DNA from: a virus
UHGV virus genome: UHGV-0091736
Reading direction: 5' to 3' (one strand)
Length of the DNA stretch: 64,000 nt
Part shown: positions 1 through 54,037 of the stretch, in pieces
How positions within the stretch are numbered: position 1 is the stretch's first letter
How the letters are laid out: each line of letters opens with the position of its first letter
Position numbers and translations under genes: made by a program
Notes under the pieces: generated by a model
The model's database searches: none
What the model was told of the DNA's origin: nothing
What the model saw: the letters and a program-made list of their open reading frames with translations, nothing else

Positions 1-3000
1 GGTGCTCTTGTAGGTGCTGCTGAAGCTCAGAACAAGCATGGCGATGACACAACCTTTGCTAATGTATTAGAGGGTGCTATTGAAGAAGGTGCTATGGGTG
101 CTGCATTCGGTGGTGCAGTTGGTGGGGTTCATGGTTTGATTAGCCGTCCAGACTCTGCTGTCTTCAAGAATACTCCAGAGTATGCGAAGACTGATATTGC
201 TGCTGATGATGAACTGATTCGTAGTGCTAAGAATATTGATGAATTGAAAGAAGCTTATTCTAAAGCTGAAACTGCTAACGCTGCTTCCGCTCTTAATCTT
301 CTGGATGAGAATGGATTCCGTATCACAGATGCTGTTGCTGTAGACTCTCCTGCTGCTCAGCGTATTCTTAATACAGACCAAGCTCATGCTGAGAAAGCCG
401 CTTCTGTTCAGAAAGAACATTCCAACATTCCGGGCCTTAATCCTTTAGCTTCTCCTGCTAAGGTTCGTGGTAAAGCTTTCGCTGATAACGAGCACAACCA
501 GAAGCAGGCTGTTGCTATGAAGGATGCAATGGCTGACTACACCAAGGATAATACTAAAACTCTTACAGATGTTCTAGATAACCTAGATCGCGAATTAACA
601 TCTCTCCGAGCTTCTGGTGATTTTACTGGCAGCCCGATTGATATTAAGAATCGTACACAAGCTGACCGTGATTTCATTGATGCTTACAAGACTTTCTACA
701 ATGAAGCAAATCGATTTAAATCCCGTGAAGGTGAAGACTTTAATAACTTTGTAGAGAAAGCTACTGAACTACAGAAGATGGCTGATAATGTTTCTCCAGA
801 GATGAAGAAAGCTATCGGTGGGTTGAAGAAACTGAAAGGTATGCCTGAAGGTTTTAATCCTATCCAAGATGCTTACACTCTGAATAATACAGCCAAATTT
901 ATGAGTAACCAAGATCGTGGTTGGACTTCCCTGACTGATGATGGCTTCCGTGAGGCTTCTTCTCCTAGTCTGGTAATGAATACTCTTGGTGCTGCTAAAT
1001 ATGCTCTGAATCGCTTCTCTTCTCAGCGTGCTCGTTCTCAACGTGTTAAGCAACAAGAATCTAACAGTGAAGCTATCCGCTCTCTGGCTCGTGGTGATTT
1101 GGAAGTTGCTCGTGCTAAATCTACTGCTGATGAAGCTCGCGCTAAGATGGAAGAAGAGCCAGTTGTTGATGACATTAAATTTAAGACGCAAAATGACGTG
1201 GAAACCGAACCGGTTCGGGAGCCTTCTTCTAGTACTGTGACGGAAGAAAATCTTCCTTCTTCTGCTCCTCAAGAAACTCCTCTTACAGCTCGTGATTTAG
1301 TTGCGCAAAGACGTGCTATCCGTCAGGCTGAACAGCGTCGCGCTGAAGAGGAGGCATTGGCTGCTCAAGAAGCTCCGGTAGAACAATCTCCACAGGCTGA
1401 ACCTCTCCCTGCTCGTAACCCTTTAGAGGAGCGTCGTGCAATGGAACAGCAACGTGCTCAAGAAGAGGCCGTACAGGCTCCAGAACCAACCGTAGAGGAA
1501 CCAACAGTCAAAGCTGAGCCATTACCTGCCCGTGCTCCTAAAGCTCCTAAGGAAGCTGTACAGGACGTTAAACCGGCAAGTGGTGTAGAACGTTTAGCTG
1601 CTATGTCTAGTGCTGCTCGTCAGGCTACTAAAGATCGTGCAGAACGCTTTGCTCGTTCTCTGTACTCTAAGGCTGCTAAGGCTAAAGCTACTGCTGAAAA
1701 CTTCTTGGCTTATAAAGGTGACCCTAAGGAATTGATGCGTCGTATTCGTCAGGAAGACAATGCTATCAATACTGAACGTCATGAAGAAATGGCTCGTAAC
1801 CAGCTGGCTTCTCAGCAAGGCATTGCTACTGCTAAGAACAACACTGTACGAACTAATTTTGCTGAATGGGTTAAGGAACGTGGTCTGCCAGAAGACATTG
1901 CTACTAAGGCATTACGTGCTGAAGAGAAAGGTTTAGGTGGGAACGTAACTAACTTGGATAGTCTGAAACGTCGTGCTGAAAGGTTGTATCAGAAGCAGCG
2001 TGAGGATGAGTTTGATAGACTGTATCAACAAGCTCTAGAAGAGAACAAAGCTTTTGATAAGAAAGATGCTCCTAAGCTGGTTGACCAGAAGAAAGAGCTT
2101 CAGTCTGAGATTGATGCTTTGATTGATTCAGAACCTTTACGTCCTGCTCAGAAAGATGCTATGCGTAAGCTGATGAATGACTTTGTAGATGGGAAGTTTA
2201 AATCTTCAGAGAAGGCTGGTAGGGAAGAGGCTTTGGAAGTTGGTCAGATGAAGGATATTTGGGATGGGTTTATTAACACCTACAACAGAGAAGTGAATGC
2301 CTTCAACAAAGCTAACAAGAACTCTCAGTACGAAGCTGCTGCTAAGCATTTACAGGCTCGTGAAGAACGCCTTGCTACTCTGAAAAACAAAGCTCAGGCT
2401 CGTTCAGATGCTAAGGCTGCTGTTGAGAATGAACGTAAAACTCTAGAGGCTATTGCAGCTCAGAAGAGTGAGATTGAGAAGATGATGGAAGGTTTACCTA
2501 AACCTGTTCGTGAGGCTCAGGAATCTCGTACATTGAAACAGTTGGCTGCTCACCACGATAAGAACTCTCCAGTTCCTCCAGAGAAGTTCCGTAGTTATAT
2601 TGAACGTATCCATAACGCCGAGTCAGATTACCTTGATCGTCAGCGTCGTTTAACTGATGCAGAGGAGGATGCTCGTCAGGCTAAGTGGAACAAGATGTAT
2701 GAGCAAGCGGAAGAACTCAATCGTAAGTTTGATGTGGACAAGAGAGTTAAGCGCAGTGAAGAGCTTAAAGCAGCCCAAGAGCGTGAGAATGATCTTATGG
2801 CAGTACAACGTCAACGTGATGACATTCATCGCCGTCTGATGCGTACTATGGAAGATAAGGGAATATCTAGAGAGGATGCTGAAGCATTTGCTGGTTCCTA
2901 TATGGATAACCGTTATGCACTTCTTGAGAAGCCTATGACTCCGACTGAACATCAGAATGCTCGCTCTCGTATCGAAGCTGATGTTGAGAAGTTCGCTAAG

Positions 3001-12331: not shown

Positions 12332-12484
12332 TCAATGGGTGTGCATCCAATTTAATCCAATCTGGCAATCAGAAGCCAGAGGACACTCCATGTTCAAATA
12401 CTCACCAGCTTTCTTGACACAAAGCTCGGTGTGCTCTTTGAGTTTCTTTACATCGTTACGATTAACTGAGAATTGGCCCTCATC
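12332..12484 (-). CDS. Family A DNA polymerase, exon 2 (C-terminal 50 aa including the DE of motif C)
   Basis: Translation DEGQF...NMECPLASDCQIGLNWMHTH resembles the T7 DNA polymerase C-terminus as I recall it. Confidence 0.7.
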   Translation of the reverse strand, partial: DEGQFSVNRNDVKKLKEHTELCVKKAGEYLNMECPLASDCQIGLNWMHTH

Positions 12485-13091
12485 CATTTACGTTATTCCC
12501 AAATTACTTCGGGTATCGGACTATATCATAACAGTATAGCTAATTTACTGTTGTTGGCGCTTCGAGGGTTTCCCTGTTAACCCCCTACTCCCGCAGGATA
12601 GTCTCTACACTTTCCACTTTCGAATCCATCTACAAGCGATTCCAAAGCTCACACCAAACCTTTCTGCAAGAGCAACACCAGTGCATTCATTGTTAAGCCA
12701 GAACTCTTTAGCAGCATCCTGTCTTTCTCTATTTCTGCCAGTGTTTGATTCAATAGCATGTGCACTACCTTCTAAGATTTCTAGATGGTCAGTATTACAA
12801 CAAGCTCTATTCTTGCATTTATGGTTAACTTCATAACCGTCAGGAATTTTTCCAAATTCCTCTTCCATGACGTATCTGTGATACATGACCCATTTGCCAT
12901 TTATCACTTTTCGAAAGTAACCGTCTTTATTTAATTTGTGTGAGATAGGGATGATACATCCTGTGCTAGTTGTTTCTAGCACTAGATCTTTCTTAGCCAT
13001 ATCACCTCCTAATAGCTTAGCTCGGTATTGCCCTCAACTTAATGGTCGGGTTTCACCGAGTTCACCAACTTTTACATGCACAATGAAGTTT
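12485..13091 (-). mobile_element. Self-splicing intron (probably group I) in the DNA polymerase gene, carrying an HNH ORF
   Basis: Exon 1 ends in T (CAT), intron ends in G (ATG); splicing restores HDE motif C in frame. Confidence 0.65.
12605..13000 (-). CDS. Intron-encoded HNH homing endonuclease
   Basis: GYEVNHKCKNRACCNTDHLEI motif; AGGAGG Shine-Dalgarno upstream of ATG. Confidence 0.7.
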   Translation of the reverse strand: MAKKDLVLETTSTGCIIPISHKLNKDGYFRKVINGKWVMYHRYVMEEEFGKIPDGYEVNHKCKNRACCNTDHLEILEGSAHAIESNTGRNRERQDAAKEFWLNNECTGVALAERFGVSFGIACRWIRKWKV

Positions 13092-14783
13092 ATGCATATC
13101 AATTACCTTAGCACAACGAACTCCATCCTTCTCAATCCACTTGTTAAGGAACATCATAGCGTATTTCATAACAACAGCACCAGCACATTGCAGGAGTGTG
13201 TTAAGTGCTTTATGAACCATAACTTTACCAGTGGCATCTCGTCTCATTGTAATCTTGCGACCATCAACACCAATCAAGTACCCTTGAGCAGCTTTCTCTG
13301 TCATGCGATCAATGAGGATTGCAATACATGGGTTCTCTGCCAAGAAACGTGCTCGCATCACTGAACCTTCATCAGCCCCGCCACCTACAATTGAACCAAG
13401 CTTAGCATCACCAGCACCATAGTTGAATGCATAGATAAATGTCTTAGCATTGTCACGAGTAGGGAGACCAGCAAGTTTCTGGTTGTGGGAGTGGATATCC
13501 CCTTCGAGGAGAATATCACGATACATAATAGCAGAAGCTAAACCGCGTTCTGCCAGAGCTTTCTTAGCTGGATTATTCTCTTCGATTGCTTCAGCAAGCA
13601 TATCTCTACATTCTTTGATGAGGTAGTGAGCGAGCATACGAAGTTCAAGTCCAGAACCATCATACCCTAAGAATACTTCTTTACCAGCGGGTATGTAATA
13701 TTTGTAAGCACCTACAGGTTTGTCTTTCTTCCCCGGCTTACCTTTCTCGTAAATTACGTTAGTACCTTTTCGTATATAACAACCATCAGGAACAACGTTA
13801 GTAATAACGAAAGGACGAGAGTGATCACTGTCTGAGTTATAGTCAGACTCAAACAAACTGCGACACTCGTGACCAAACAAACCACGGGAGGGAATATTAA
13901 CCACGATACGATGTTTGAATCGAAAAGTCGGCGTAGCGCAGCTGTTAGCTTCTGCCGAAAGTTTACCATCTTCGCGTTCCTTTGCTATAAGTCCACTGAT
14001 AAGACCTAGCCTGTGAGCCGCTACAACACGTCTCTTAAGCAAACTTCCAACACTCCCTAGCTCACCCCCTAACCCTTCTTCAAGAGTCTCCTCGAGGTTT
14101 GTAGGAGCTGTAGGCCACTTGTTTGATGTAGCTAGTGCTTTCTTAATCTCATCAAACGTTACAGGGTTACGGCGATTAGGGTTTAATCCCAAACCAAACA
14201 CGTAAGCCTTCATGTAATTCTTAGTCTTAAACCTAAAATGCTTTTCTAAGAATTTCTTGATATCAGCGTCAACCATCTCGGCTGTCTGCTTCTGCTTAGC
14301 ACTGCCTCTCATCCAAGCAGTGTACCAAGCCTGATATGTTCCATACTTTCGCATGTCTTTCTTAATTTCGAAAGTATTCCAAGGCTTCTTAGATACGTTA
14401 AACTCTGGAGGAAGAAAGCCCTCATCCATAAGAGCTTCTTTAACTCGTGCATCTTTCGATGGGTCAAAGTCTACATATTCTACACAGGTGAATGCTCCAC
14501 CAATGTCTTCTCTCTTCAGCCCAACCCTATCACAATAAGCTTGAGGCCACTTCTGCAAAGCACCAGACTTCTTAAACGGCTTCATGTAAGTAGAGCCATC
14601 TAATCTCATCTTAGGTAAGAGAGGAATCAACTCTCTATCAATATTAACAATAATCTCTTTAAGGAGGTGAACATACCACCGAGCATTTCTTCGGTTGAAA
14701 CTCACTCCGTGCTTTGCTTGCTTAGAGATTATATCAGCGACAGTCATCTCTGTCAAAAATGGAAGAGCGTCCGGGTTGCTCAC
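13092..14783 (-). CDS. Family A DNA polymerase (T7 gp5-like), exon 1, polymerase domain without the 3-prime to 5-prime exonuclease domain
   Basis: Motif B TRDNAKTFIYAFNYGAG and ALNTLLQCAGA; ORF stops 9 codons after the His of motif C. Confidence 0.8.
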
Positions 14784-16187: not shown

Positions 16188-17906
16188 TTAAGCTTTCTTT
16201 TCCATTGCTTTAACAATCGCCTTACAGAAACCAGAACGAACAATATCATCTGATTCACCATCTACAATCTCAGCAAACTCATACAGATCATGTTCATCAA
16301 TAAAGTTAGTAGCCCAAGTAAGACCACTCTCACGACCACGCATATCATGCTGGTTAGTATCACCCATGCAGAACAGCTGAGAGGTTTCTCCCAATCGAGT
16401 CATGATTGAGAAGGCTTCATCTTTAGTTGTGTTCTGGAACTCATCCACGATAACAATGGCATCATTGAAAGAGCGACCACGGAGATATTCCAGAGGTACA
16501 AATTCAATGTTACCATTTCCGATTTGGCATTCATAGAACCCCTTACCATATCGCTGAGTAATAACATCAATGATAGGCATCAGGTATGGTTCAAACTTCT
16601 CACGCATCCCCCCCGGAAGTAACCCAAGAGAGTTACCCATGCCGACCGAAGGGCGACTCAGAATGATCTTCTGAATCTTACCACTCTTCAGTGCATCAAT
16701 AACTGTGGAAGTGATTACAAAGGTCTTACCACAGTTACCTGTCACGAAAATGTTATCATCTCGACGGAGCAACAGAGCACCTGTTGAGGTTGTAAAGCAA
16801 TATTTAAAACCATCCTCCGTCTTCATCTTTGTGATCACAGCTTTCCCAGATTGTGGGTTGTTTGGGGTAATACTGATATGTGTCTGTTTAGAGAAATAAA
16901 CACGATACTCTAGAGATTTACGAGTATATCCACCATACTCCCGACCAACTCTGTCGTAAGTTATGATAGATGATTTGTAACCACACTGCATTCCTACAAA
17001 CTGGATATAGTCTGCATCATCTTTATCGGAAGTAAAGAAAGGTGGTAGTCTATTTCCTTGTAGGGCAAAACCCCCGTCCCAGAATTTAATCTCATCAAAG
17101 ATGATTTTAGCATCACTCTTGTTACACAAAGGCCAGTCTTTATACCTTTTAGTCGCACCTAGAAGAGAGAAAGATATTACATGAAACCCTGTATCATCTG
17201 ACTTTTCTGAGTAATCTAAATGGAGAGTATCCAATAACTCTTTGAGTCGAGAAATCTTCCTCTCTTTCTTTAATCTGAAGACGAATCGCGAGGTGGACTC
17301 TGTTTCCAAGTGGGCATCAGCCTTGATGGCAACATGAAGACGTAATTCAGGTTCAGATAGACCTAAACTTTTCCCTGAAACAAAGTTGGATGTAGTTTTA
17401 ATTAGACCCTCAAACCCTATCTTCTTCTTGTGGTGCCTTGAAAGAAGATCAGATACCTTGATTTTGTTCGCTTTGTCTTTATCTCCCTTACGATAATAAA
17501 CGACATTATGGTCATCACATAACGCCTGAGATATCCCACGGTATGTTTTAAACAAGTTCAACTCTTTACACTCTTGTTTAATATAAGCTACAGGTTTTTC
17601 TAAATGAGACTCTCCTGTGGTTAAGTTTACTGCTGTTATTAAATCACCTTCCACATAGTCAGAAATCTTTTTCCATCCAAACTCTGAGAGAAACTCGGTA
17701 TCCTTATCAACACAGCCCGCAGGAGCGTCTGTGAACACAACTTGTTTAGTCTTAATAGCATTGAGTAGCTCAGACTGAAACTGGTTCTGAGGGACTACAG
17801 GCTTTGCTAAAACCACCTCTTCATACTCTCGCTTACCCTTACGAGTAACAAGTGCTTCCCGACGAAGGTCTTTCCGTGATTCTTTCCTTGATTGACGACG
17901 ACTCAT
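16188..17906 (-). CDS. phoH: PhoH-like ATPase interrupted by an intein
   Basis: N-extein ends DAPAG, C-extein begins CGKTF; joined gives Walker A APAGCGKT, then Walker B IVIVDEFQNTT. Confidence 0.75.
   Translation of the reverse strand: MSRRQSRKESRKDLRREALVTRKGKREYEEVVLAKPVVPQNQFQSELLNAIKTKQVVFTDAPAGCVDKDTEFLSEFGWKKISDYVEGDLITAVNLTTGESHLEKPVAYIKQECKELNLFKTYRGISQALCDDHNVVYYRKGDKDKANKIKVSDLLSRHHKKKIGFEGLIKTTSNFVSGKSLGLSEPELRLHVAIKADAHLETESTSRFVFRLKKERKISRLKELLDTLHLDYSEKSDDTGFHVISFSLLGATKRYKDWPLCNKSDAKIIFDEIKFWDGGFALQGNRLPPFFTSDKDDADYIQFVGMQCGYKSSIITYDRVGREYGGYTRKSLEYRVYFSKQTHISITPNNPQSGKAVITKMKTEDGFKYCFTTSTGALLLRRDDNIFVTGNCGKTFVITSTVIDALKSGKIQKIILSRPSVGMGNSLGLLPGGMREKFEPYLMPIIDVITQRYGKGFYECQIGNGNIEFVPLEYLRGRSFNDAIVIVDEFQNTTKDEAFSIMTRLGETSQLFCMGDTNQHDMRGRESGLTWATNFIDEHDLYEFAEIVDGESDDIVRSGFCKAIVKAMEKKA
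16734..17714 (-). mobile_element. Intein (about 327 aa) inserted in the PhoH P-loop
   Basis: Starts with Cys (CVDKDTEF), ends with Asn (GN) before extein Cys; size leaves room for an endonuclease domain. Confidence 0.55.
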
Positions 17907-52645: not shown

Positions 52646-53251
52646 ATGTCACTAGATAAACAAATTTATGAAGCTCTAACTGGTAACAATCTTAGTGTAG
52701 ATGAAAAGAAAGCACTATTGAATATGTTGAAAGAGCGTGACCAATGGAGGAAGTATAATAGGATTTTGTCTTTCAAGGCGTATGACTTCCAAAAGAAATT
52801 TTATGCAGCAGGATTGAAGCATAGGTTCAGGTTTCTCTGTGCGGCTAACCGAGTTGGGAAAAGTTACAGTGAAGCGTACGAATTCGCATGCCACGTTACC
52901 GGAAGATATCCAACATGGTGGACCGGTCATAAGTTTAAGAGGCCAATACTTGCGTGGGCTGTAGGGATTACAGGGGACTCAACAAGGAAAGTATTGCAAA
53001 AAGAATTATTTGGTACACCAATTGGAAAGGACACTAATCTGCTAGGTACTGGAGTTATTCCACGAGATGCAATAGTAATAGATACTATAGAAAGGGATGG
53101 TAATAAGCTACAGATAGTACAGATTAAGCACCAGAATGAAAGGGGTGAGTTTGATGGATTAAGTACGTTAGAATTTCGATCAACACAACAGGGTGAACAT
53201 ACACTGATGGGTGCTACTGTTGATTATATATGGCTGGATGAAGAGGATTGT
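52646..53251 (+). CDS. Terminase large subunit, exon 1 (ATPase N-terminal part through Walker B)
   Basis: Walker A AANRVGKS and Walker B YIWLDE; track ORF stops two codons after the proposed splice point. Confidence 0.7.
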
Positions 53252-54037
53252 ATATAACATAGCTAGAAGTGTTGGTCCTCTATAAACTCGGTGAATTGCT
53301 GGAACCTCTGACCCTTAAGTGGAAGACAATCAGCAGCGAAGATAATGTATAACTTACTCATGATACATTATAACGTTCAACGACTATCGAAAGCATAGCC
53401 CGTATGGGTGAAGAAGCAAGTAGAGTAGATACCAAGTGGTATCGAAGTGCCGAGCAAAACTAAGGAGTGATACATTGGGTAGACCTAACAAATCATTAGA
53501 TTCAACCAAAACATGTTCAGTGTGCTCTGTAACAAAAGACATAGAATCTTTTGCAATAAGAACAAGAGCAATATCCACTGGAGAGGTTAGAATCTACCGT
53601 AAGTCTCAATGCAAAGAGTGCATGGCTGAGATGAGAAGGGATTGGGGTAAGAATAATCCAGATAAGATTCGTGAGAATAATAATTCTCCAAATAAGAGAG
53701 CTTGCGATAATGCAAGACGGGCTGGATTAGAAACTGCTTCTATTATCAGAGATGATGAGTATAATAAATTTGTTATGGAAGAAATGTATGAACTTCGAAA
53801 TCTTAGAACAAAGGAAACTGGATTTCAATGGCATGTAGATCACATAATCCCTTTAAAAGGTAATAACGTATGTGGTTTTCATGTCTGGTATAACTTGCAG
53901 GTAGTTCCTGCTGTTTTCAACCTATCTAAGAGTAATAGTTTTGATGATATAGTCTGCTCTGCATGGAAACATGCAGCTGGAGAAATCCGGGATGAGATTA
54001 ACGATCTTGTCTGAACAACACGCCATATGAGTCTATG
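53252..54037 (+). mobile_element. Self-splicing intron (probably group I) in the terminase large subunit gene, carrying an HNH ORF
   Basis: Exon 1 ends in T (TGT), intron ends in G (ATG); splicing joins Walker B to the ITATP motif in frame; shares AACTCGGTGAA block with the polymerase intron. Confidence 0.55.
53436..54014 (+). CDS. Intron-encoded HNH endonuclease (probable TTG start at 53475)
   Basis: [24 protein letters not shown] motif; AAGGAG then TTG; TAATGTATA at 53343-53351 upstream. Confidence 0.65.

What the first reader, a model, noticed from the sequence alone, without database searches (positions are those of the whole stretch)
12485..13091. Intron with HNH endonuclease splits the DNA polymerase exactly at motif C
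The polymerase ORF ends 9 codons after the His of the expected HDE motif C, and a 50-aa ORF 0.6 kb downstream begins with DEG and continues to a T7-Pol-like C-terminus (recalled from memory). Joining after CAT (13092) and before GAT (12484) restores ...VIDMH-DEGQF... in frame. Exon 1 ends in U and the intron ends in G, as group I splicing requires. An HNH ORF with its own Shine-Dalgarno sits inside. Group I introns at this gene have been reported in T7-like phages.
Basis: partly seen in the sequence, partly recalled or inferred. Interest (0 to 1): 0.7.

Follow-up and report, generated by a model that had tools for sequence, protein, structure and literature searches.

The report
Self-splicing intron in phage DNA polymerase
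A 607-base self-splicing group I intron carrying its own HNH homing-endonuclease gene interrupts this E. coli phage's DNA polymerase gene inside its catalytic motif; it belongs to an intron type already described in T7-like phages, so it is real but not a new kind of element.

Summary
Removing window 12485..13091 (minus strand, 607 nt) joins the 564-codon and 50-codon polymerase pieces. The result is a 614-aa protein, collinear with and 610/614 identical to the uninterrupted DNA polymerase of the related Kuravirus phage ES17. At least 83 phage records carry the joined sequence without the insert.

The insert has the anatomy of a group I intron of the IA2 type. Exon 1 ends in U, paired to G in a 6-bp P1. 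The internal guide also pairs 7 bp with exon 2 (P10). P3 to P9 are present, with P7.1 and P7.2 joined by GUA, and the intron ends in G.

In 15 homologous introns, 94% of pair cells are standard pairs, against 34-45% when partners are slid, and 21 pairs show compensatory changes. These include P1 and P10 changes that track the exon sequence.

The intron and its 131-aa HNH gene are homologous to the polymerase introns of T7-like phages such as K1F, 13a and Bas102. They sit at the same site (His|Asp-Glu of motif C, E. coli Pol I position 881). The host polymerases are only about 27% identical.

Verdict: new member of a known kind. Splicing was not tested.

In passing, the window holds two more group I introns (primase/helicase, terminase) and an intein in PhoH.

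The parts
13092..14783 (-). DNA polymerase exon 1 (564 codons, GTG start, ends ...VIDMH, last base U)
   Evidence: ORF list. Pfam DNA_pol_A E 9.5e-14. Collinear with ES17 polymerase codons 1-564.
12485..13091 (-). Group I intron, 607 nt, IA2-type architecture, begins AAAC..., ends ...AAAUG
   Evidence: Absent from ES17 and from at least 83 related records. Rfam RF00028 27.5 bits, E 8.7e-5, on 12497..12677. Covariation-supported structure.
12332..12484 (-). DNA polymerase exon 2 (50 codons DEGQF...NWMHTH plus stop)
   Evidence: Begins with the Asp-Glu of motif C.
13062..13064 (-). In-frame UGA that ends translation of unspliced RNA 9 codons into the intron
13076..13097 (-). P1: exon AUGCAU (13097..13092) paired with internal guide GUGCAU (13081..13076), with U13092.G13081 wobble at the splice site
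   Evidence: Read from the sequence. 100% paired in 15 introns. The -6 pair covaries, A-U in 6 and G-C in 9.
13082..13088 (-). Guide segment CUUCAUU that pairs with the first 7 bases of exon 2, GAUGAGG (12484..12478): P10
   Evidence: helix 3: 93% paired, with compensatory changes that track exon 2 codons 2-3.
13063..13069 (-). P3 5' strand GUUGGUG (partner CGCCAAC at 12553..12559)
   Evidence: helix 4: 7 bp, 100% paired, 5 of 7 pairs with changes on both sides. Also recovered in the MFE fold.
13021..13060 (-). P4-P5-P5a domain (CUCGGU...ACCGAG enclosing CCC/GGG and GAC/GUU), with A-rich J4/5 and J5/4
13005..13010 (-). Shine-Dalgarno AGGAGG of the endonuclease gene
   Evidence: Conserved as GGAGG in all homologues.
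12605..13000 (-). HNH homing-endonuclease gene (131 aa), placed between the two strands of P6 (GCU 13016..13014 / AGU 12611..12609)
   Evidence: Pfam HNH_3 E 2.9e-12. PHROG 6254 E 2e-41. 54-61% identical over the full length to the intron HNH proteins of T7-like phages and Vibrio phage Vp_R1.
12564..12603 (-). P7 5' strand GACUA (12603..12599), P7.1 hairpin UCC-UGCG-GGA, GUA linker, P7.2 hairpin GGGGGUU/AACCCUC
   Evidence: Motif GACTATCC-N4-8-GGAGTA is unique in the window, with 0 expected.
12553..12559 (-). P3 3' strand CGCCAAC
12530..12552 (-). P8 hairpin AACAGUA / UACUGUU
   Evidence: helix 12: 97% paired, 4 pairs with compensatory change, including U-A to C-G within Kuravirus.
12519..12528 (-). 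J8/7 and P7 3' strand (UGAUAUAGUC), invariant in all 15 introns
12498..12513 (-). P9 hairpin CCCGAA-GUAA-UUUGGG
   Evidence: helix 13: 100% paired, 4 of 6 pairs compensatory.
12485..12485 (-). Terminal guanosine (omega-G) at the 3' splice site
   Evidence: G in 15/15 homologues.

Best explanation
Window 12485..13091 (minus strand) is a mobile group I intron of the IA2 type, in the family A DNA polymerase gene of a Kuravirus (phiEco32-like) coliphage.

The gene is transcribed as one RNA. The intron RNA folds into the P1-P10 ribozyme. An external guanosine attacks after U13092, which is held in a U.G pair by the internal guide GUGCAU. The freed exon 1 then attacks after the terminal G12485, while exon 2 is held by the adjacent guide segment CUUCAUU (P10).

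The ligated mRNA encodes a 614-aa polymerase with an intact His-Asp-Glu motif C. Unspliced RNA yields only a truncated protein lacking the catalytic carboxylates.

The intron carries, between the strands of P6, a 131-aa HNH endonuclease with its own ribosome-binding site. By analogy with other intron-encoded HNH enzymes, this cuts or nicks intron-less polymerase alleles near the insertion site during mixed infection, so that repair copies the intron in (homing).

Shown here: boundaries, restoration of the frame, structure with covariation, homology, and patchy distribution. Inferred: the catalysis itself, the endonuclease's activity and target, and homing.
For: **Exact excision.** Removing the 607 nt restores a protein collinear with and 610/614 identical to ES17's uninterrupted polymerase. 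83 records carry the uninterrupted junction. Only 11 of 86 matching records, about 8 distinct phages, carry the insert.

**Structure.** The model has 63 pairs in 13 helices. 94.1% of cells are standard pairs, against 34-45% with partners slid by 1-3 columns. 21 pairs have changes on both sides, against a shuffled mean of 11.4, and 0 of 500 shuffles reach this value or the covariation score. The MFE fold of the ORF-deleted core independently recovers P1, P3, P4, P5, P7.2, P8 and P9.

**Splice-site pairings track the host gene.**
- P1 position -6 is A-U where the exon codon is AUG (Kuravirus, Vp_R1) and G-C where it is GUG (T7-like phages).
- The P10 guide changes with exon 2 (GAUGAGG, GAUGAAAU, GAUGAGAU, GAC).

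**Rfam.** Intron_gpI matches the P7/P3'/P8/J8-7/P9 core, E 8.7e-5.

**Homology.**
- The intron DNA aligns at 65-69% identity over up to 98% of its length with introns at the same codon boundary in T7-like phages.
- The ribozyme core is about 72% identical and the HNH protein 54-61% identical.
- The host polymerases are only about 27% identical.
- K1F, 13a and Bas102 annotate the polymerase as a joined CDS.
- PMC3428280 reports that the PhiI/W31 introns are IA2, carry an HNH ORF in P6a, and sit at Pol I site 881. PMC4925675 mentions the K1F intron.
Against: - No experiment shows splicing in this phage.
- The Rfam hit (27.5 bits) is below the family's gathering score (50), and nothing in the window reaches gathering.
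- P4, P7 and P7.1 never vary in the set, so they are neither supported nor contradicted by covariation.
- P6 is only 3 bp.
- The inner part of P7.2 aligns poorly between clades (55% paired).
- The fold z-score of the ORF-less core is modest (-1.96).
- The alignment sequences are related to one another, and the structure was drawn on the window sequence, which inflates some measures.
- GenBank annotators of the Kuravirus relatives list two separate polymerase CDS rather than a join.
Confidence: 0.93

Rival explanations
1. Fractured gene without RNA splicing. A free-standing homing-endonuclease cassette split the polymerase gene. The two pieces (573 aa and 51 aa) are translated separately and assemble into an active enzyme.
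For: Exon 2 happens to be preceded by an in-frame ATG made of the last three intron bases, giving a 51-codon ORF. Several GenBank records annotate two polymerase CDS, and SU7 even marks a ribosome-binding site before the second one.
Against: - The ATG is not conserved. Homologous introns end in AAAG or AUAG with no in-frame start, yet they have the same architecture.
- About 210 nt of non-coding sequence is conserved, with compensatory base changes in a group I fold. A simple cassette would not need this.
- The split falls between His and Asp-Glu of the catalytic motif C.
- Homologues in T7-like phages are reported to splice (PMC3428280, citing Bonocora and Shub 2004).
Confidence: 0.03
2. Decayed intron. 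The element was once a group I intron but has lost ribozyme activity, and needs a host or phage factor, or leaves the polymerase gene defective.
For: Rfam score below gathering. No experimental data for this lineage.
Against: - All core elements are intact and invariant where the family is invariant (J8/7, P7, omega-G, U.G pair).
- The intron is kept in about 8 independently isolated, plaque-forming phages.
- The HNH ORF is full length and 80-98% identical among them.
- The polymerase is presumably essential.
Confidence: 0.03
3. Assembly or annotation artefact, for example a chimeric contig.
For: None found.
Against: The same 607-nt insert sits at the same base in independently sequenced phages from Pakistan, China, Switzerland, Sweden and Korea.
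Confidence: 0.01

Closest known systems
Group IA2 introns in the DNA polymerase gene (gene 5) of T7-like phages PhiI and W31 (Bonocora and Shub 2004, as summarised in PMC3428280), and their relatives in K1F, 13a and Bas102-104
   Same: - Same insertion point, after the His codon of motif C (E. coli Pol I position 881).
- Same architecture: no P2, P7.1-GUA-P7.2, and a 131-aa HNH ORF with its own SD between the P6 strands.
- Clear sequence homology: ribozyme core about 72%, HNH 54-61%, whole intron 65-69% identity.
   Different: - The host is a Kuravirus (Gordonclarkvirinae), whose polymerase is only about 27% identical to T7-type enzymes and lacks their N-terminal region.
- The guide sequence is adapted to the new exons (P1 -6 pair A-U instead of G-C; P10 CUUCAUU).
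- P5 carries an extra P5a extension.
- P7.2 and P8 are rebuilt.
- PhiI and W31 sequences themselves were not in the collections searched, so the link to them runs through K1F and 13a-type introns and the literature.
[not shown]
   Same: Homologous intron and HNH (60.6% aa) at the same site, with the same AUGCAU/GUGCAU P1. Its polymerase is the closer relative of the window's enzyme (47.6%).
   Different: The intron is no closer to the window's than the T7-like introns are (about 72% in the core). It has a longer 3' tail after P9, and it is not annotated as an intron.
SPO1/SP82/Bastille and Pf-WMP3 polymerase introns with nicking HNH enzymes (I-HmuI, I-HmuII, I-BasI, I-PfoP3I)
   Same: Group I introns with HNH homing endonucleases in family A polymerase genes of phages. 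Pf-WMP3's is also IA2 with the ORF in P6a (PMC3428280).
   Different: Different insertion sites (Pol I positions 674/676, finger subdomain). No sequence similarity was detected in the searches here.
Second Kuravirus polymerase intron (phage ManiMatter_Bas94)
   Same: Same host gene and lineage. Group I intron (Rfam 43.3 bits), annotated as a joined CDS.
   Different: Different site (motif B...AKTFI/Y|AFNYG, codon 451), 706 nt, carries an endonuclease VII-type gene, and is absent from the window.

Membership tests
Group I intron (self-splicing ribozyme) | 5' splice site follows a U that forms a U.G wobble with the internal guide sequence in P1 | tested here: met
   AUGCAU|...GUGCAU. U.G in 15/15 homologues, helix 100% paired, with one covarying pair.
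Group I intron (self-splicing ribozyme) | Intron ends in guanosine (omega-G) | tested here: met
   G12485. G in 15/15.
Group I intron (self-splicing ribozyme) | Conserved core P3-P4-P5-P6-P7-P8-P9, with the P3/P7 pseudoknot and the J8/7 consensus | tested here: met
   63-pair model, 94.1% of cells paired against 34-45% slid, 21 compensatory pairs, and 0/500 shuffles reach either the observed number of compensatory pairs or the covariation score. J8/7-P7' GAUAUAGUC matches the Rfam consensus.
Group I intron (self-splicing ribozyme) | P10 pairing between the guide and the 3' exon | tested here: met
   7 bp, CUUCAUU/GAUGAGG. The guide covaries with exon 2 across clades.
Group I intron (self-splicing ribozyme) | Score at or above the Rfam RF00028 gathering threshold. 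This is a detection threshold, not a structural definition. | tested here: inconclusive
   27.5 bits against 50. E 8.7e-5 in a 1-kb search and no hit at gathering. The model has no room for the 396-nt ORF or for P7.1/P7.2. The related Bas94 and terminase introns also score below 50 (43-45 bits).
Group I intron (self-splicing ribozyme) | Precise excision restores the host reading frame | tested here: met
   614-aa product collinear with ES17.
Group I intron (self-splicing ribozyme) | Guanosine-dependent self-splicing | not testable with these tools
   Needs in vitro transcription and splicing, or RT-PCR.
Subgroup IA2, PhiI/W31-type polymerase intron | P7.1 and P7.2 inserted between P7 and P3', linked by G-U-A | tested here: met
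   GACUA-UCCUGCGGGA-GUA-GGGGGUU...AACCCUC-GAAG-CGCCAAC. GGAGUAGG is invariant in 15/15. The criterion is as stated in PMC3428280.
Subgroup IA2, PhiI/W31-type polymerase intron | Insertion after His of motif C (Pol I site 881) | tested here: met
   VIDMH|DEGQF here, and AWVH|DE(I/L)Q in T7-like phages. Site 881 is from PMC3428280.
Subgroup IA2, PhiI/W31-type polymerase intron | Endonuclease ORF located in P6a | tested here: inconclusive
   The ORF lies between the strands of a 3-bp P6 (93% paired, one covarying pair). A distinct P6a stem was not resolved.
Subgroup IA2, PhiI/W31-type polymerase intron | Sequence homology to family members | tested here: met
   65-69% identity over 83-98% of the intron with K1F, 13a and Bas102-type introns. 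PhiI and W31 themselves were not available for comparison.
HNH homing endonuclease (Pfam HNH_3; I-TslI-like) | HNH catalytic motif | tested here: met
   HNH_3 46.5 bits against a cut-off of 24.8. PHROG 6254 E 2e-41.
HNH homing endonuclease (Pfam HNH_3; I-TslI-like) | Presence/absence polymorphism among close relatives, consistent with mobility | tested here: met
   11 of 86 records with the insert. 83 records with the empty site.
HNH homing endonuclease (Pfam HNH_3; I-TslI-like) | Site-specific cleavage or nicking of the intron-less allele | not testable with these tools
   Needs purified protein and an ES17-type target DNA.

The most novel reading that the evidence does not exclude

The window phage would also be an unusually active arena for such elements. 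It carries three group I introns (two clearly of the same IA2-like type) in three essential genes, plus an intein. Two of the introns and the intein are absent from every one of the 80+ sequenced relatives in the collection.
Probability: 0.6. Interest if true: 0.45.

Novelty: new member of a known kind. Interest (0 to 1): 0.3.

Why it matters
**Annotation.** In at least eight deposited Kuravirus/Suseptimavirus genomes the polymerase is listed as two genes, or as hypothetical proteins, flanking a 'homing endonuclease'. It should be one joined CDS. No paper in the searched library links Kuravirus or Gordonclarkvirinae to introns.

**Biology.** The same intron-nuclease pair has moved between phage families whose polymerases are barely alignable. 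It uses the invariant motif C coding sequence as its landing site, and its P1 and P10 guides have co-evolved with the new exons.

**Practical use.** Kuravirus phages are candidates for phage therapy. Mobile introns and inteins are markers of, and drivers for, recombination between co-infecting phages.

None of this changes what is known about how group I introns work.

Tried and rejected
- **Rfam, whole window, gathering thresholds:** no hit. Only the permissive local scan found the intron core. In that hit, the part aligned inside the ORF is forced and meaningless.
- **Other weak Rfam hits in the region** (mir-1000, mir-75, SNORD94, fluoride riboswitch; E 0.9-6): rejected as chance.
- **PDB sequence search with the HNH protein:** only a spurious ferredoxin match, E 0.94.
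- **Primary papers not held:** Bonocora and Shub 2004 and 2009 could not be read. The review PMC3984707 does not mention the T7-like introns in its text. What is said here about PhiI/W31 therefore rests on PMC3428280's summary and on my own recollection.
- **Intein reading of the polymerase insert:** rejected, because there is an in-frame stop 9 codons in.
- **Alternative boundaries:** shifting the boundaries by one base turns His-Asp into Gln-Asp, and the shifted intron would no longer end in the guanosine a group I 3' splice site requires.
- **Single-sequence AlphaFold of the PhoH insert:** uninformative (pLDDT 33.6). The run with an alignment of homologues worked.

Full report
**1. What is in the sequence**

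All genes in this part of the window run on the minus strand. The features below are read.

- ORF 13062..14783 (573 aa) matches Pfam DNA_pol_A (E 9.5e-14). It ends ...AKVIDMH, followed by nine unrelated codons (KLHCACKSW) and UGA.
- ORF 12605..13000 (131 aa) lies 61 nt after that stop. It matches HNH_3 (E 2.9e-12) and PHROG 6254 'HNH endonuclease' (E 2e-41). An AGGAGG sits 5 nt before its ATG.
- ORF 12332..12487 (51 codons) lies a further 117 nt on and reads M-DEGQFSVNRND...IGLNWMHTH.

**2. Where the window comes from, and the natural control**

The region is 94-96% identical to E. coli phages of the genus Kuravirus (phiEco32-like, Gordonclarkvirinae).

Most relatives match in two pieces because they lack the middle part. 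In phage ES17 the polymerase is a single 614-codon gene. BLAST of the window against ES17 leaves exactly window 12485..13091 unmatched.

Joining 13092 to 12484 gives a 614-aa protein with no gap and 610/614 identities to ES17. The 82-nt in-silico junction is present, uninterrupted, in 83 phage records including phiEco32 itself.

Only 11 of 86 matching records carry the insert. These are about eight distinct phages: FH3, 1-6af, 1-6bf, PE006, pEC-N1203-2Af.1, PAS59, SU7 and ECBP2. In those records it is annotated as a homing endonuclease or hypothetical protein between two polymerase CDS, never as an intron.

**3. Is it a group I intron?**

Rfam finds nothing at gathering thresholds in the whole window. 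A permissive scan gives Intron_gpI at 12497..12677 (27.5 bits, gathering 50, E 8.7e-5). The alignment is convincing over J6/7-P7 (AGAGACUA), P3', P8, J8/7-P7' (GAUAUAGUC) and P9.

Reading the sequence by the group I rules gives a complete model:

| Element | Sequence or position |
|---|---|
| P1 | exon AUGCAU paired with guide GUGCAU, with the splice-site U in a U.G wobble |
| P10 | the seven bases just 5' of that guide, CUUCAUU, pair with the first seven bases of exon 2, GAUGAGG |
| J1/3 | GUAAAA (there is no P2) |
| P3 | GUUGGUG / CGCCAAC |
| P4 | CUCGGU / ACCGAG |
| P5, P5a | CCC/GGG and GAC/GUU |
| P6 | GCU/AGU, a short helix bracketing the endonuclease ORF |
| P7 | GACUA / UAGUC |
| P7.1 | UCC-UGCG-GGA |
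| Linker | GUA |
| P7.2 | GGGGGUU / AACCCUC |
| P8 | AACAGUA / UACUGUU |
| P9 | CCCGAA-GUAA-UUUGGG |
| 3' end | terminal G |

P7.1 and P7.2 joined by G-U-A between P7 and P3' is the criterion for subgroup IA2 given in PMC3428280.

**4. Comparative test of the structure**

A sensitive BLAST of the 607 nt finds the Kuravirus copies. It also finds, at 65-69% identity over 83-98% of the length, inserts in the polymerase genes of many T7-like phages (Bas102-104, K1F, 13a, VSG32, AV103, mtp4, Sal_R1S and others). Further matches are in Vibrio phage Vp_R1, Edwardsiella and Klebsiella autographiviruses, and Aeromonas phage PT2.

I extracted 17 introns. I removed the ORFs and aligned 15 non-redundant cores with short exon flanks. 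I then counted the pairs of my model on that alignment.

- 94.1% of 869 cells are standard pairs. With the 3' partners slid by 1-3 columns the figure is 34-45%.
- 21 of 63 pairs show changes on both sides, against a shuffled mean of 11.4. No shuffle out of 500 reaches this value.
- The covariation score is 0.243, against 0.096 shuffled and at most 0.076 slid.
- P3 is 100% paired, with five of seven pairs compensatory.
- P9 is 100% paired, with four of six pairs compensatory.
- P8 is 97% paired, with four compensatory pairs.
- P5 and P6 each have compensatory pairs.
- P4, P7 and P7.1 are invariant, so they say nothing either way.
- The inner P7.2 is not alignable between clades.

An unconstrained MFE fold of the ORF-less core recovers P1, P3, P4, P5/P5a, P7.2, P8 and P9. 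The z-score is modest, -1.96.

**5. Pairings that tie the intron to its exons**

These are the most telling covariations.

- In T7-like phages exon 1 ends GUGCAU (Val-His) and the guide is GUGCAC. In Kuravirus and Vp_R1 it ends AUGCAU (Met-His) and the guide is GUGCAU. This is a G-C to A-U switch at position -6 (helix 1).
- The P10 guide reads AUUUCAUU where exon 2 is GAUGAAAU.
- It reads AUCUCAUU where exon 2 is GAUGAGAU.
- It reads CUUCAUU or CUUUCAUU where exon 2 is GAUGAGG or GAUGAAGG.
- It reads GUU where exon 2 is GAC.

A cassette that merely split the gene would have no reason to track the exon sequence on both sides.

**6. Relation to known introns**

PMC3428280 summarises Bonocora and Shub 2004. 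The T7-like phages PhiI and W31 carry a self-splicing IA2 intron in the polymerase gene at E. coli Pol I site 881, with an HNH endonuclease (I-TslI) in P6a.

From general knowledge of Klenow fragment, His881-Asp882-Glu883 is motif C. So the site is the same as here (VIDMH|DEGQF) and as in the T7-like loci I retrieved (AWVH|DEIQ). K1F, 13a and Bas102 annotate the polymerase as a joined CDS around the HNH gene. PMC4925675 refers to the K1F group I intron.

| Comparison with the window | Identity |
|---|---|
| HNH protein, T7-like and Vp_R1 homologues, collinear over all 131 residues | 54-61% |
| Ribozyme core | about 72% |
| Host polymerase, T7-type enzymes | about 27% |
| Host polymerase, Vp_R1 | 47.6% |

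The element is therefore much better conserved than its host genes. This points to horizontal transfer between phage families through the conserved motif C DNA (shared TGCAT|GAYGA), followed by adaptation of the guide sequence.

No paper in the searchable library connects Kuravirus or Gordonclarkvirinae with introns.

**7. How it most likely works**

The mechanism is the standard group I pathway described under the best explanation.

- Shown: boundaries, frame restoration, fold with covariation, homology, and patchy distribution.
- Inferred: catalysis, and the HNH protein's cleavage of empty sites followed by homing.
- Unspliced RNA would terminate at UGA 13062..13064, giving a polymerase without the catalytic Asp-Glu. 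The intron-bearing relatives are plaque-forming isolates, so splicing is presumably efficient.
- The intron-less ES17 allele differs from the window at the two synonymous positions touching the junction (CAC|GAC against CAT|GAT). Bas94 has CAC|GAT. Whether these differences affect cleavage or merely reflect co-conversion is untested.

**8. Rivals**

- **Fractured gene translated as two polypeptides.** This is suggested only by the accidental ATG at the intron's end. That ATG is absent from most homologues (AAAG| or AUAG|).
- **Decayed intron.** This is contradicted by intact invariant core elements and by retention in about eight independent isolates.
- **Assembly artefact.** This is excluded by recurrence in independent genomes.

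**9. Verdict on the finding**

The finding is real and correctly interpreted. It is a new host lineage for a known intron family, not a new kind of element. Its main value lies in correcting annotation and in the clear evidence of cross-family transfer with guide-sequence adaptation.

**10. Other elements seen in passing**

Searching the window for the invariant J8/7-P7' decamer gave two further exact hits. These led to two more group I introns.

- **Primase/helicase gene.** Intron at 24493..25112 (-), 620 nt, with an HNH_3 ORF. Rfam gives 30.1 and 25.7 bits.
- **Large terminase gene.** Intron at 53249..54022 (+), 774 nt, just after Walker B. Rfam gives 45 bits.
- Both excise to products collinear with ES17.
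- Neither region is covered to 80% or more by any of the 83 or 120 matching phage records respectively.

The PhoH gene (16188..17906, -) carries a 327-aa in-frame insert inside Walker A (APAG|C...GN|CGKT).

- The insert is absent from all 80 matching phage records.
- It has no Pfam or PDB sequence match.
- It has homologues inserted in other PhoH, RtcB and P-loop proteins.
- With that alignment it folds confidently (pLDDT 91.2) into an intein with a LAGLIDADG endonuclease domain. Top Foldseek hits are the TliVMA and PhoVMA inteins, PI-SceI and PI-PfuI, E 9e-14 to 1e-6.

These three elements are rarer among relatives than the polymerase intron. They deserve their own evaluation.

Noticed in passing
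window 24493..25112 (-); ORF 24671..25006 (-): A second group I intron (620 nt) splits the primase/helicase gene at ...GSRSLMR|WCQC.... Exon 1 ends AUGCGU and pairs with guide GCGCAU, and the intron ends in G. It carries a 111-aa HNH_3 ORF (E 8.7e-9). Its 5' part closely resembles the polymerase intron. Excision gives a 596-aa product collinear with ES17. No phage record covers at least 80% of the region; O18-011 and VTCCBPA_211 have a partly similar HNH insertion.
   Followed up: partly
window 53249..54022 (+); ORF 53436..54014 (+): A third group I intron (774 nt; Rfam Intron_gpI 45 bits, E 8.9e-10) splits the large terminase gene right after Walker B (WLDEED|PYES). It contains a 192-aa ORF with an HNH-like motif by eye but no Pfam hit. 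Excision gives a 513-aa product collinear with ES17 TerL. None of the 120 matching phage records covers at least 80% of the region. 27 records match only at 80-90% identity, and matches from Klebsiella, Salmonella, Vibrio and Pectobacterium phages were not examined.
   Followed up: partly
window 16734..17714 (-), inside PhoH ORF 16188..17906 (-): A 327-aa in-frame insertion sits inside the Walker A motif of PhoH (APAG|CVDKD...FVTGN|CGKT). It is absent from all 80 matching phage records and has no Pfam or PDB sequence hit. It has homologues inserted in other PhoH, RtcB and P-loop proteins. AlphaFold with that alignment (pLDDT 91.2) matches intein plus LAGLIDADG homing-endonuclease structures (TliVMA, PI-SceI, PI-PfuI; E down to 9e-14). 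This is a divergent intein with Gly-Asn rather than His-Asn at its C-terminus.
   Followed up: yes
L003 (phage ManiMatter_Bas94) 2869..3574: A related Kuravirus has a different group I intron (706 nt, endonuclease VII-type ORF, Rfam 43.3 bits) in the same polymerase gene at motif B (...AKTFI/Y|AFNYG), and is empty at the motif C site. The window is empty at the motif B site.
   Followed up: partly
L013 (Aeromonas phage PT2) around 900..1100: This T7-like phage shows a second group I core signature (ACGACTATCCCGAAAGGGAGTA ... GATATAGTCTGC) about 1 kb upstream of the motif C intron. That suggests two introns in its polymerase gene.
   Followed up: no
window 12484/13092 versus L001 3208..3211: The intron-less ES17 allele differs from the window at both synonymous positions flanking the insertion site (CAC|GAC against CAT|GAT). 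Exon 2 is more diverged from ES17 (91.6%) than exon 1 (96.7%). This could reflect co-conversion or selection for cleavage resistance.
   Followed up: partly
L012 and L018 (Edwardsiella phage DT115P1, Klebsiella phage RCIP0053), intron positions about 17-37: These two homologous introns carry an extra hairpin (ACGUC-GAGUAAUU-GACGU) between P1 and P3, i.e. a P2 that the Kuravirus and T7-like copies lack.
   Followed up: no
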